The notes beneath the pieces are model-generated. The model had not been told where the DNA came from. It ran no database searches and worked only from the letters and a program-made list of their open reading frames with translations. The translations under genes were made by a program, and so were the position numbers. A stretch of DNA of 64,000 bases from Chrysomallon squamiferum. Lineage: Eukaryota > Animalia > Mollusca. The DNA lies in assembly GCA_012295275.1 (NCBI GenBank), contig CM022672.1, forward strand, positions 14,322,001 through 14,386,000. The letters are read 5' to 3'. Shown here one piece after another: positions 49,601-55,600 of this stretch (its first letter is position 1; each line of letters begins with the position of its first letter).

Positions 49601-52600
49601 AATTATTTATTATGTTTTATTTCCCCTGTGTGTAATTTAGATAAAATTCTACTGATTAATTTTCCATCATTGGCTATTTATTTGAAGTTAAGCATTTACT
49701 AAAAAAACCCTCCCAAAAACAATGTATAAAAAAAAAAAAATTAGAAAAAAACTATGAAAAGGATTTGTAACTACTAGCCTGTTTCATTTTTTTATTTATT
49801 TATTTATTTAAAATTATTTTTATTTATTAATTTTTAATTATTATTTTTCAAACATCATTATTTTGGACTTTTTGTTTTTCATTATGGCATAAATAATTAT
49901 TTACTTTGATAAAAGAAACTGATTTTGTAATTTCCAGATAAATAATGATTTTAGCTTTTGTTTTTACAGTCACTTTAACAATTGTATATCCCTAACCTAA
50001 CCTTTTCTGATAACACGTGTACCACGAAAGATACAGAATAACTGTTATATCCCTTCTAACAAGAGTGGAATATTTTAAATATATTTTTAATTTTAGGAAA
50101 TAAAAAATAAAAAGTCAACTGATGTTTATAAGAAGAAGAAAAATTATGTAGAAAATTAAAAAAAAAAAAAAAAAAAATGATATAATATTTAAAACTATAT
50201 TAAAAATCTGAATGAACCCATTTACCCTCATCATTTTCTGCAAGTGAAAAATATAAACATTTACAAAATTTACATCTTCAAGACTCTTTCTTGGTTAACT
50301 TGGAAAACAGATATTACAATTCTTATTGTTTAACTTGTAAAAATATTTACAATAATTAGCTTGAATGTAATAAAAACACATAGTTATCTTATTAAAATAA
50401 TAACAATTAAAAAAAAAAAATTAAAAGATTTTTAATTTTAGTATATAAAAGTTTAGTAAACATTAAAATTTAAGCTAAAAGCTGTAAACAGCTAATTTAA
50501 AACTTATGCCAAACAAAAAAGCCTAAACTGAAAAATAATAACAACAAAATAAATACATTAACTTTAACGTATAGATTAAATTCTGTATTTAAAAATAATA
50601 ACTAGTAATAAATATTTTGAGTGTTTGTAAAAATAAAATGTGATTACCAAATCTGTCACAAACTGAATATATTATACACATAAACATATATTTTATTTAA
50701 CCAATTCTGTGTGTGTGTGTGTGTGTGTGTTTCTGTCTTTTTCATTTTGATATTCTCATTTTAAGGTGTATTTGTTTTGAATAATTATTTTTATTTTTAT
50801 TATTATTATCACATATATACATATTATTACTATTATTATTTTTTTTGTGGGAATGGAGTTTATACATACTTTACAGATATTCTTCCTGATTTTGAACACA
50901 ATCAGTTTAAATAATAGTAACAAACATATATTAAATATGGATCTTATTTCTGTCAAGTTTATCGTATGTGGCTTTTATGTTTTAGCCACCCATGCTAGAT
51001 ATTTGTTATATGTAATGAATTAGGACAAAATTCAGTTTCTGGATCATAACATTTTTAAAAATTAACTTTCTTGTTACTATTCTGTAATTTACTATTTAAT
51101 TAACAAAATTTATCCAAAATTCTGTTGTACACACTGAACCAAAAGGACATAGAATTTTCTTTTAAATTTTAACTTTTCAATTTTTTTTTATACTCATTCA
51201 GTTTGTGACAAAAAGGTAATTCAAAACATACAGTAACAAATTAAAAATCTACAAATTAAAAAAAAAAAAAAAAAAAAAATAGAAAAAAATAAATGATAAA
51301 TAAATAAAAAATAAAATTTTAAAATATAATTTTTCTTAACAGTATAAATCTATCTTTAAAAATTTCTACAAATGCCAAAACATAACTCCTACATTTATTT
51401 ATTATTTTTTTTATTTTTTTTTTAAATTTTTATTTTTTTTAAAGTTCTGGCTGCAAAGCACTCAAAACAGTTATATGAAGCTTTAAAATTTCAGCTTTAC
51501 AGAAGATTTTAAGAAATATTTTTGCTATAAATAATCACCAGTATCTCCTGGAGATGAAATTAAAGAAATTGGTAAAAATATTGTCCCAACATTGTCGTCT
51601 TCATTGAGTCGGTCCCTGCAGCATGAAAAGAGACAAGCATATAAAAAAAAAAAGCAATGTTAGTATATTCTGAGAACCACTGGTAACCACTAGCAACCAA
51701 CCATTACCAACCATTTATAGTAAAAAAAAACATTTGATGTAGGTTGTGGAACATCCATAAAATATGTATTCCCAGAATGTGCTTTGGCCATTATGTATTG
51801 TGAGTTATGATATATATATATTTATTCAGTGTGTGTGCATGTATAATTGTATGTGCTTGTGTGTGTGTGTGTGTGTGTGTGTGTGTTGTGTTTGTGTGTG
51901 TGCTGCATGTGTATGTGTATGTACAGGTGTACTCATGTATGTGCTCATGTGTGGAATACACTAATAGACTGATACTTTTTTTTGTTTTTTTTTTGTAGGG
52001 GACTGTCCACACTTTAGAGACATCCGTTTAGTTAATATAAATTAAGCAGTGTCCCTTACATCTGTGAAATAATGTGCACATTGTTATAAGCATAAATGAT
52101 AATAATAACAACAATAATAATAACAATAATGAAAACAGCAACAATAACAACAAGAACAATATAATAATAATAATAATAATAATAATAATAATAATAATAA
52201 TAATAATTTCATATTATCTTCTTGTCCATTTACTTTGCAGATTGCTAGATTTTAATATCTGACCACAGAACACAAAAGAAGATCAGACTTTATCAAAATG
52301 ATATTAGTTCCAAGACACCTTTTCTTCTATCAAATTATGCAATAGTTATTAAATTATTATTGTTGTTGTTTTTGTTTGTTGTTTTTTTTGTCTGAAAGTT
52401 ACTTATATAACTGATGAATTTCTGCTTAAAATAATAATTCATTAAACTGTAGTATACTGTTCAAAATAATAATAGTAATAAATGATATTAATAATAATCA
52501 TCATCATCATCATCATAATCATATTCGTCATCATCATCATAATCATATTCATCATCATTATAATCATATTTGTCATCATCATAATCATCATCGTAATCAT

Positions 52601-55600
52601 CATCATCATCATAAACATCATCGTAATCATCATCATCATCATCATCAACAATAGCTCAACAATAATCCCTGGTTAGTTATTTTTCTATATTACATGCTGC
52701 TCAATACTGTAAAACCTTTACCAACATCCCAGCTGTTTATTATATTACATATAACATCTACCTAGCAACAGTATTAGTTATTAACACATAATAACCATGC
52801 CTGTACAAAAAAAAAAGCTTTCTTTTCGCACCATGTAAGTCTCGTGTCTTATTATACGGGTGATATATGCATGCGTGAGATACAAGGTATACTACATCTA
52901 CAAGGGTTGGTTATGGCTGTACAGACAATGGAATGAAGCATCTTGGGCAAGTTATGTTGAGACAAATGCATGCCGTTATTTCCTGTATATCCATGCTATC
53001 ATTTTTTTTTGCAACATTTCACATCAGGCAAGTGCAGACAAGACATTTGGAATTTCAGGGGAAGGACTCCATCAGACAGACACACTCACAGACAGATAGA
53101 CAGACAGACAGACAGACAGATAAAAAAAAAATAAACAAGTGTTTAGTAGTTTGAGTTGTCCACACATTCAGAAAAACAGATGTACATTTTGTTTAATAAT
53201 AATAATAATAATAATAATAATAATTATAATTATAATAATAATAATAATAATAATTATAATAATAATAATAATATTTATTATTATTATTATAATCATCATC
53301 ATGATGTTAGTATATATATATATATATATATATATATATATATATATATATATATTTATACACACACATCAACTAGTCTAAATAAAAAAAAATTCTGAAA
53401 TGAAAAATATTTTAAAATGATAAGTGAAATGTTTGTTATTTGTTCTGGGATTAACTTTTTAAATTTATTTGGTTTAATATCTACACAATTATATATTTTG
53501 TTGCATTGTAGACATATAACCAAATAAATTGGAAAAATTCCTACCATAATATAAACAACAAATTTTTATGTTAAAATGTTATTTTAATACTTAAAAAAAG
53601 AAATGTGTGGACAAGTCAAACATACTAAATAAATATCTGCTTCACTAACTGGCACATTTCATTATGAATATTGTTGACTTTTTATTCAATGGGCATGAAG
53701 TAAATATCACAAATATATTTACAAATTTAAAACCTTCAGTCTCCTGTTGATTTTTATTTATTTACATTCTAAAAAGGCAATAATAATAATAACAATAATA
53801 ATAATAATAATAATAATAATAATAATAATAATAATAATAATAATAATAATAAAAAAATAAATTATGATTATCCAAGTCGGTGTAAAGGCCAAATTGCAAA
53901 TTAATTTTTTTTAATATCATATTTTTCTGAATCAAACTTATTTCGAAATTTCCAAATGCAAGAAAAAGATGAAATTTTTTTTAATAATAATAAATAAATA
54001 AATAATAATTATGTTTTGAAAAAAATAAATAAATAAAAATAAAATAAACAAATAAAAGATAATAAATTTGAACTAAACTCTTTCATAATTTTAACCCAAA
54101 GATAACCAAAAATAAAACACACGCAGAAATTCCTAAAAAAAAAAAAAAAAAAAAAAAAAAAAAATTCTTAATTCCAAAAATTAATTTAAAAGAAACAAAA
54201 CAGTTAACAGTTTTATTAAAAACTCCCATGACACATTTTGAAAAGACAAGTCAACATGACTGCAATGAAGTGAGCCAGGGTGAGGCAGACGAACAAACTG
54301 AAAAGGAAGAGAGAAACAAACCCGACTCCCCAGGAGCTGACATAGAGGGAAGGTTGAGATGTCCAGAGCAGACTGTGTCATCCTTGTTCATTCGATCCCT
54401 GCAGTAAGCAATGTGTACTTTAAAATGCATCAAAATTAGTCACTCTTCATCAGCCAAATCTTACGCTCATTCTTTCTAGAACAGTGGTAAGCTAGGTGTA
54501 CTTTGAAATACGTCAAACTGTGTGACTTTTCATTAACATGAGTTCATTCCTTCTAAAAATGCATTACATCTGGTGAGCAAGATACAATTTAAAATACATT
54601 AGGAGAGTCATTTCAATACATTTTTTTATATCAGGTGAGTCTGACTAGACCTAGCACTTGTATCAGGTGAGCAGTGCTTAGTTCAAAATACAGTGTGTTG
54701 TCTTAGTGCTAGTCATTCATTCATTCATTCATTCATGAACTGCATTACATGAGGCAAGCAATGGGTAATTTAAAATGCATCATGTGAGTATTTAATTATA
54801 TTTTACATCCACGAGTATCTGTCTCATTTTGTAAGAAGTGTGTAATTTGAGGTGTGTGCCATTACACCAAGAGAATGATGCTGACATTCATGTATGACAC
54901 ATCACACGAGATATGTTGTTATTAACTAAACAATACTGACATCTGGTGAGAGATATTGCCAATCCTTGTAATTTAAACCACGTGATTTTTGCTGACAATC
55001 ATTGAAGACCTCTAATATCTCATTAAAATTAAAAGTATTTCTGTCACACTGGATGAAGAAAATGGCAGTAACAAAATGTTAAATTCTTTTAAATGAATCT
55101 TCAGTTATCATCTTGCTGAATGCTTATTGTCAGCTATAAGACCCAAATAATGAAACTGACAATTTCTGTATACCACATCAGACGAGCTAAATAGCTAGAT
55201 GTTGTAAATTAAATTGAATTTAGTGATGTTATTAAAATCATGGACATCATCAGTTTTAATCATTCAAAAAGCTTTATGATGTCACATGTGAGCGTTTATC
55301 AATCATTCATTCTAACATAAAGTGAGTTTTATTGTTATCATTTTTGTTTTTAGATCAGGGGATGACATTATCAGTTTGTGCTAACACACACATTAAATTA
55401 AGCAAAGGGCAGCATGAGGCTGGGAATGTTTTGCTTTATTTATTGTGGGGAAACAGGTTTTGGAATGTTCAGAAAATAAGCATGAAGATAATGGTCTAAA
55501 GCGAGTTTATTTTAAAAAAGAAAATAATGAAATTAAATTATCATTGATAATGACATCTTTATGCTCTCTCTCTCTCTCACACATACACACACACACATGA

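What the first reader, a model, noticed from the sequence alone, without database searches (positions are those of the whole stretch)
51539..54398. Duplicated, mutually exclusive 77-nt exons swap the C-terminal loop and strands of the ferlin C2C domain
Seen: two exons in one intron (54322-54398 and 51539-51615), both exactly 77 nt, phase 2->1, with canonical ctgcag/GT sites. They encode homologous peptides [25 protein letters not shown] and [25 protein letters not shown]. Either one joins ...IRDW to GFLPTFGP in frame; including both, or neither, frameshifts. Known: DWDR..D..D is the acidic Ca2+-binding loop 3 region of C2 domains. Inference: the K/E, T/N and CS/GT differences could give two C2C variants with different Ca2+/lipid binding. 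I do not recall an MXE pair at this position in vertebrate DYSF/MYOF, so it may be a lineage-specific isoform switch.
Basis: partly seen in the sequence, partly recalled or inferred. Interest (0 to 1): 0.8.

Follow-up and report, generated by a model that had tools for sequence, protein, structure and literature searches.

The report
Ancient either-or exons in mollusc ferlin
A snail gene for a membrane-fusion protein (ferlin) carries two old copies of one small exon, and many molluscs list isoforms with one copy or the other; both versions keep the same calcium-binding residues, so the switch likely fine-tunes membrane contact or domain packing rather than turning calcium sensing on or off.

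Summary
Confirmed. Two homologous 77-nt exons (A 54398-54322, B 51615-51539, minus strand) lie in a type I (myoferlin/dysferlin-like) ferlin of a gastropod close to Gigantopelta. Either keeps the frame; both or neither ends in a stop. RNA contigs splice A to the downstream exon in 4 of 4 runs and to the upstream exon in 3 of 4; B is supported here only indirectly. The pair is not local: 19 of 40 mollusc species sampled (snails, bivalves, octopuses) have both types as isoforms of one gene, five oysters have three, and schistosomes have a pair of their own. B is the conserved, outgroup-like form; A is derived, usually with Cys/Ser for a conserved Gly. A 12-nt microexon follows B but never A in the records. 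The exon encodes loop 3, one strand and the start of the C2C insert, not the C-terminal strands. The calcium-ligand aspartates are invariant, and the K/E and T/N differences are not type markers. Ten literature searches found no description; the event is already visible in RefSeq. The scan earlier noted a parallel pair in otoferlin C2B on other DNA. New member of a known kind.

The parts
14397..63875 (-). Type I ferlin gene (myoferlin/dysferlin-like), from C2B to the transmembrane exon; the 5' end lies outside the window
   Evidence: tblastn with fetched ferlins, 44 matched pieces, 83% identity to Gigantopelta aegis; FerA and C2 Pfam hits
56076..56119 (-). Constitutive upstream exon (44 nt, ends in phase 2); carries the first loop-3 aspartate (myoferlin D444)
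   Evidence: spliced to exon A in RNA contigs of 3 of 4 runs
54322..54398 (-). Alternative exon A (77 nt), derived type with Cys-Ser at myoferlin 455-456; weak donor gtttgt
   Evidence: 19 of 25 aa identical to the Gigantopelta A isoform
54262..54321 (-). Pyrimidine-rich tract right after A's donor; candidate regulatory element (inferred, untested)
   Evidence: 80% pyrimidine, second highest of 39 donors of the gene, the highest being a (CT)n microsatellite
51539..51615 (-). Alternative exon B (77 nt), conserved outgroup-like type with Gly-Thr
   Evidence: 21 of 25 aa identical to Gigantopelta B and 22 of 25 to Octopus B; indirect RNA signature in run X2
50226..50237 (-). 12-nt frame-preserving acidic microexon in the C2C insert, likely used after B only
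   Evidence: canonical sites; matching 4-residue inserts in Gigantopelta, Haliotis and chiton records; not seen in RNA here
47721..47821 (-). Constitutive downstream exon (end of insert, next core strand, loop 4)
   Evidence: matches myoferlin, dysferlin and otoferlin structures; joined to A in 4 of 4 runs
47021..47134 (-). Constitutive exon with the last core strand of C2C

Best explanation
Two tandem copies of one 77-nt exon sit in this ferlin gene, copy A is spliced in on its own, and the pair is likely an ancient mutually exclusive switch whose two C2C versions are predicted to bind calcium alike but likely differ in membrane-tip chemistry and in how the following strand and insert pack against the FerA/FerB helices. 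Shown: exon anatomy, frame logic, splicing of A, both types as isoforms of one gene in three mollusc classes, invariant D446/R447/D452. Inferred: B is spliced in this species (about 0.9); one duplication before gastropods, bivalves and cephalopods split (about 0.75); double inclusion or skipping is cleared by nonsense-mediated decay (about 0.7); B retains the ancestral form and is co-selected with the acidic microexon while A is the derived form (about 0.75); the functional effect is tuning of packing and lipid contact rather than a calcium on/off switch (about 0.55).
For: Frame tests. RNA contigs: A joined to the downstream exon in 4 of 4 runs and to the upstream exon in 3 of 4, no A-to-B or A-to-microexon loose end; in run X2 a contig starts 26 loose letters into the upstream exon, exactly the break expected if an upstream-to-B junction also exists (28 for intron retention). 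19 of 40 mollusc species have at least two variants, 18 of the 19 with three or more records; flanks are identical between variant records in 19 of 19; 15 of the 19 have RefSeq records for both types. Window A and B as one clade is rejected (AU p 0.012). With the Gly/Thr columns masked, the non-Gly variant is the one farthest from other genera's B exons in 20 of 20 species. D446, R447 and D452 are invariant in 67 of 67 mollusc peptides; these and T449 are the loop-3 ligands or lipid contacts in myoferlin (PMC12264198). B is fixed where A varies at 462-466 (S 37 of 38, L 30 of 38), and exon position 18 maps by my count to dysferlin K484, named among the insert-to-FerB contacts (PMC11544258). 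B-associated extra peptides occur in 60 of 80 B records and 0 of 13 A records from 10 species.
Against: No read or contig was laid on B or the microexon, so B's use here rests on one contig break in one run, which a variant at that base could mimic. All four runs are contigs from one study and drop rare forms, so exclusivity is not proven. A-A identity across classes (10.5 of 25) is no higher than A-B (10.2), A exons fall in several groups on a 25-column tree (4 changes), and only 14 of 20 A exons are closest to the other A set once the marker columns are masked; single origin of A is not rejected (p 0.159) but not shown. The Gly marker partly defines my classes. Both alternative exons are less conserved against Gigantopelta (76%, 84%) than nine constitutive exons (340 of 356). 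Gene models are predictions and isoform lists are not abundances. No binding data exist; position 449 does differ on average (Asn in 21 of 29 A, 12 of 38 B).
Confidence: 0.6

Rival explanations
1. The switch mainly changes calcium or phosphatidylserine sensing: A and B give C2C domains with clearly different calcium affinity or lipid preference through loop-3 tip residues.
For: The exon carries D446, T449, D452 and the lipid-facing 447, 448, 450 of myoferlin's major membrane site. In this species position 450 is Lys in A and Glu in B; position 449 lacks a hydroxyl in 21 of 29 A against 14 of 38 B. A splice variant of dysferlin C2A loses calcium-dependent binding (PMC3898210).
Against: Ligand positions 446, 449 and 452 are identical in the two copies here; Lys450 is in only 5 of 29 A exons; mean loop charge is similar (-2.4 and -2.7).
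Confidence: 0.25
2. The exon was duplicated several times independently in different mollusc lineages, and the spare copy converged on similar changes.
For: A exons are not one group on the free tree and are no more alike across classes than A and B. Oysters did duplicate B again, and schistosomes have a pair in which both copies keep Gly-Thr, so this exon does duplicate repeatedly.
Against: Within-species A-B identity (10.6) is no higher than cross-class A-B (10.2); 18 of 19 multi-variant species have exactly one variant with Cys/Ser at 455; the A-before-B order in the Mytilus tandem models matches the window; one A clade is not rejected.
Confidence: 0.15
3. One copy is a near-neutral passenger that is spliced at low level with no distinct function.
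For: A evolves fast and has a weak donor; dN/dS could not be computed.
Against: A is the form that runs through the RNA contigs here; both copies keep length, frame and the three invariant residues across three classes; third-position identity between the copies is down to 7 of 25 while second-position identity is 20 of 25.
Confidence: 0.06
4. The second exon is an assembly artefact or comes from a paralogous gene.
For: The assembly has local errors elsewhere in this gene.
Against: The copies are only 55% identical with unlike flanking introns, and each matches its own isoform of one Gigantopelta gene whose two proteins differ only here.
Confidence: 0.01

Closest known systems
RefSeq isoform pairs of mollusc myoferlin-like genes, e.g. 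Gigantopelta aegis XP_041370601.1/XP_041370600.1 and Octopus bimaculoides XP_052821675.1/XP_052821676.1
   Same: Same exon, same two types; each pair differs only in this segment.
   Different: Automatic annotation only; no description found in print (searches listed in the full report).
Tandem duplicated exon substitutions (homologous mutually exclusive exons; PMC8373072, PMC9741552)
   Same: Adjacent homologous exons of equal length and phase, one per transcript, old and conserved.
   Different: The human catalogue lists DYSF only as an N-terminal and OTOF only as a C-terminal event, and no MYOF or FER1L event; this one is internal, in C2C.
Human dysferlin C2A/C2Av1 (alternative first exons)
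   Same: Duplicated exon swaps part of a ferlin C2 domain.
   Different: Promoter/first-exon choice in C2A with loss of calcium-dependent binding; here an internal exon in the rigid core, with ligand aspartates kept.
Human DYSF exon 17 skipping
   Same: Optional segment; by alignment the dysferlin insert lies where the microexon lies (that the insert is exon 17 is recalled).
   Different: A cassette exon, not a duplicated pair; the preceding loop-3 exon has no catalogued duplicate in humans.
Duplicated C2B exons of invertebrate synaptotagmin 1 (Aplysia, Drosophila, C. elegans) - recalled, not confirmed
   Same: Either-or exons inside a calcium-sensing C2 domain of a fusion protein.
   Different: Different family and domain.

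Membership tests
Tandem-duplicated mutually exclusive exons | Adjacent homologous exons in one intron interval | tested here: met
   42 of 77 nt, 10 of 25 aa; exactly two HMM hits in the window
Tandem-duplicated mutually exclusive exons | Same length and phase; each alone keeps the frame | tested here: met
Tandem-duplicated mutually exclusive exons | Each exon found spliced in transcripts of this species | tested here: inconclusive
   A direct; B only through one contig break in run X2
Tandem-duplicated mutually exclusive exons | Never both, never neither, in mature mRNA | tested here: inconclusive
   No A-to-B loose end in 4 contig sets, which drop rare forms; among mollusc records only 3 non-RefSeq Mytilus models carry both
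Tandem-duplicated mutually exclusive exons | Both copies conserved in relatives as isoforms of one gene | tested here: met
   19 of 40 mollusc species, flanks identical in 19 of 19
Tandem-duplicated mutually exclusive exons | Purifying selection on both copies (dN/dS) | not testable with these tools
   no orthologous nucleotide sequences were available
Type I ferlin (dysferlin/myoferlin-like) | Tandem C2 domains, FerA, DysF and C-terminal transmembrane segment | tested here: met
   exon-by-exon match to annotated type I ferlins, including DysF and TM exons; FerA and C2 Pfam hits, FerA below the curated cut-off on a single exon
Calcium-binding ferlin C2C | Loop-3 ligands D444, D446, D452 present | tested here: met
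   both variants; calcium binding itself not measured
Sterically enforced exclusive exons (distant branch point next to the upstream donor) | Very short intervening intron or an AG-free zone from the donor to the next acceptor | tested here: not met
   intron 2,706 nt with 83 AG; AG-free zone only 54 nt

The most novel reading that the evidence does not exclude
The C2C loop-3 exon was duplicated once in an early spiralian and kept in molluscs, annelids and flukes as a tissue-specific two-state switch (A alone versus B plus acidic microexon) at the main calcium/phosphatidylserine site of the single type I ferlin, doing by splicing what vertebrates did by duplicating the gene into dysferlin and myoferlin. 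An annelid gene model holds two such peptides in tandem with the Cys-Ser one first, and one schistosome variant groups with sea-slug A exons on a supported branch.
Probability: 0.15. Interest if true: 0.7.

Novelty: new member of a known kind. Interest (0 to 1): 0.42.

Why it matters
C2C is the major calcium- and phosphatidylserine-binding contact of the ferlin core in the 2025 myoferlin structure. A natural pair (trio in oysters) of interchangeable loop-3/strand/insert modules kept across three mollusc classes gives ready-made variants for asking which features of C2C set ferlin behaviour, and suggests that invertebrates diversify one ferlin by splicing. The splicing mechanism is a familiar one and the isoforms are already in RefSeq, so the gain is a specific, testable and apparently undescribed case rather than a new principle.

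Tried and rejected
No assembly of the window's genome is held, so no genome-wide check was possible. A word-based protein search with a single exon found nothing (74 candidates, none significant). Most of the 150 representative hits were gene-caller fragments of genomic contigs, uninformative about the upstream exon. Exon B and the microexon have no reads laid on them, so their direct use in this species is open. The first HMM scan was built from one peptide through an indexing error and is discarded; one search replaces it. In one search, 17 labelled records lacked the region or motif and were dropped, and the Lineus and Lingula segments were mis-cut by the pattern and re-read. For the tree I left out unnamed records, three near-duplicate coral rows, one schistosome row with a 1-residue insertion and a second Babylonia gene (93 rows kept). 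Inverted-repeat search for docking/selector pairings gave 1,205 pairs; the 25 longest, the only ones shown, are microsatellites, so no RNA-structure mechanism was found or excluded. Steric exclusion by a distant branch point was rejected; splice sites are ordinary GT-AG. K/E and T/N were rejected as type markers. Only the A variant was folded; the model gives strand limits, not affinities. dN/dS could not be computed. Searches of the scan's notes by sequence, by relatives and by a second word set gave nothing.
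Full report
Observation. Both exons are present as described, 77 nt, phase 2 to 1, on the minus strand. They share 42 of 77 nt (0 of 100,000 shuffles as high) and 10 of 25 aa, with 13, 20 and 7 of 25 matches at codon positions 1, 2 and 3. Either exon alone keeps the frame between 56119-56076 and 47821-47721, with or without a 12-nt microexon at 50237-50226; both or neither give a stop with many exon junctions still downstream. 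An HMM from 102 homologous peptides finds two copies and no third in the window.

The gene. It is a type I ferlin running from C2B to the transmembrane exon. Of 14 named proteins compared, Gigantopelta aegis is closest (83%), then Haliotis (75%) and Patella (72%), so the window is from a gastropod near Gigantopelta.

Expression. Four RNA runs of one organism and one study hold the gene. Laid on the exon A region, their contigs join A to the downstream exon in 4 of 4 runs and to the upstream exon in 3 of 4; the loose letters match those exons exactly; none matches B or the microexon. In runs X3 and X4 one contig passes through A unbroken. In X2 a contig begins 26 loose letters into the upstream exon, the value expected for a branch where A and B diverge after three shared bases, against 28 for intron retention. 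That is indirect evidence for B from one run. B itself has no reads laid on it, and contigs drop rare forms.

Conservation. From two protein searches (best 120 of 457 and of 2,864 hits) and three cluster look-ups (at most 15 members listed per cluster) I read this segment in 40 mollusc species. Nineteen have two or more variants, including 18 of the 19 with three or more records. Variant records have identical flanks in 19 of 19, so they are isoforms of one gene; 15 of the 19 have RefSeq records for both types. They span nine gastropods, eight bivalves and two octopuses. Five oysters have three variants, the third falling among B exons. The chiton has two records, both B plus microexon. Outgroups with several records show one variant: Lineus 10, Lingula 3, Ptychodera 15, Lytechinus 11, Strongylocentrotus 8, Branchiostoma lanceolatum 8, Amphibalanus 10, Nymphon 7. 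Against a purely molluscan event: Schistosoma has two variants in one gene, both with Gly-Thr, and a Paralvinella (annelid) gene model holds two exon-like peptides in tandem, the first with Cys-Ser.

Age and polarity. B is conserved across classes (15.5 of 25; window B against Octopus B 22 of 25) while A-A (10.5) is no higher than A-B (10.2). On a 25-column tree 32 of 37 B rows form one weakly supported group with the single Lingula exon and a long-branch rotifer row; window A groups with other snail A exons. A species-specific duplication is rejected (AU p 0.012); one A clade is neither shown nor rejected (p 0.159). Most outgroup peptides resemble B more than A and keep Gly455 (25 of 31). I infer one duplication before the three classes split (Cambrian, date recalled), with B ancestral-like and A derived.

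What the exon encodes. In the myoferlin structure C2C spans 357-544, and loop 3 binds three calcium ions through D444, W445, D446, T449 and D452 and contacts lipid through R447, L448 and K450 (PMC12264198). The exon starts at D446. A model of the Gigantopelta A domain (pLDDT 80.5) puts in the exon the loop tip, one core strand and the first half of the insert, with two more core strands downstream. D446, R447 and D452 are invariant in 29 of 29 A and 38 of 38 B peptides; 449 is Asn in both copies here. Position 450 is Lys in 5 of 29 A; 453 is mostly Thr in both. The types differ at 455 (Cys/Ser in 27 of 29 A; Gly in all B, partly by my definition) and at 460-466, where B is nearly fixed. With 455-456 masked the non-Gly variant is still farthest from other B exons in 20 of 20 species and closest to other A exons in 14 of 20. 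[quoted passage not shown] Hence the inference that the switch tunes packing and lipid contact more than the calcium ligands; nothing was measured.

Coupled microexon. In 10 species with extra peptides after B, 60 of 80 B records and 0 of 13 A records carry them (gastropods 28 of 34 against 0 of 7); oyster A records carry their own fixed two extra residues. This agrees with the direct A-to-downstream junction in the RNA. Isoform lists are not independent counts.

How exclusivity is kept. The A-B intron is 2,706 nt with 83 AG dinucleotides, so steric exclusion is unlikely. No convincing RNA pairing was found. A has a weak donor followed by a pyrimidine-rich tract, a candidate regulatory site. 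The frameshift makes nonsense-mediated decay the simplest filter (inferred).

Literature. Ten full-text searches returned no paper describing this exon pair; the library lacks most subscription papers. Seen: PMC12264198 abstract and four results sections; passages of PMC11544258, PMC2923515, PMC9282427, PMC11171558, PMC9741552, PMC3898210 and bioRxiv 10.1101/2022.01.18.476802 (its supplements not seen); PMC8373072 listing and supplement rows (61, 62, 65), which give DYSF an N-terminal and OTOF a C-terminal event and no MYOF or FER1L event; PMC7969005 listing only. Among 28 vertebrate records checked, 27 have Gly-Thr and one Ser-Thr at 455-456; vertebrate isoform sets were not surveyed. The synaptotagmin parallel and the exon-17 label are recalled. 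An unchecked note of this scan reports a parallel pair in invertebrate otoferlin C2B.

Verdict. A real, old, apparently undescribed mutually exclusive exon pair at the main calcium/lipid site of the molluscan type I ferlin; a new member of a known kind. Interest 0.42.

Noticed in passing
window 43790-43595, 40860-40765, 58120-58110, 63660-63645 (minus strand): Four exons of the otherwise conserved ferlin have a frameshift or a missing splice-site base, several next to homopolymer runs; likely assembly indel errors rather than pseudogenisation.
   Followed up: partly
window 54543-54608 and 54724-54789: Degenerate repeat units (73% over 66 nt, 181 nt apart) upstream of exon A resemble the sequence just before A's acceptor and could act as decoy acceptors.
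   Followed up: partly
window 517-613 and 1433-1566 (+ strand): Candidate exons of a convergent neighbouring gene; the second gives a weak DHDPS-family hit (E 0.0011, below cut-off), perhaps a HOGA1-like aldolase (the name is my guess).
   Followed up: partly
proteins P0166, P0217, P0171, P0169 and their clusters (oysters): Oysters have three alternative versions of the exon plus up to two optional microexon peptides after the B-type ones.
   Followed up: partly
proteins P0508-P0515 (Schistosoma): Schistosome dysferlin-like proteins have two alternative versions of the same segment in one gene; origin shared or independent is open.
   Followed up: partly
protein P0234 (Paralvinella palmiformis): An annelid gene model runs through two exon-like peptides in tandem, suggesting an unannotated pair in annelids.
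   Followed up: no
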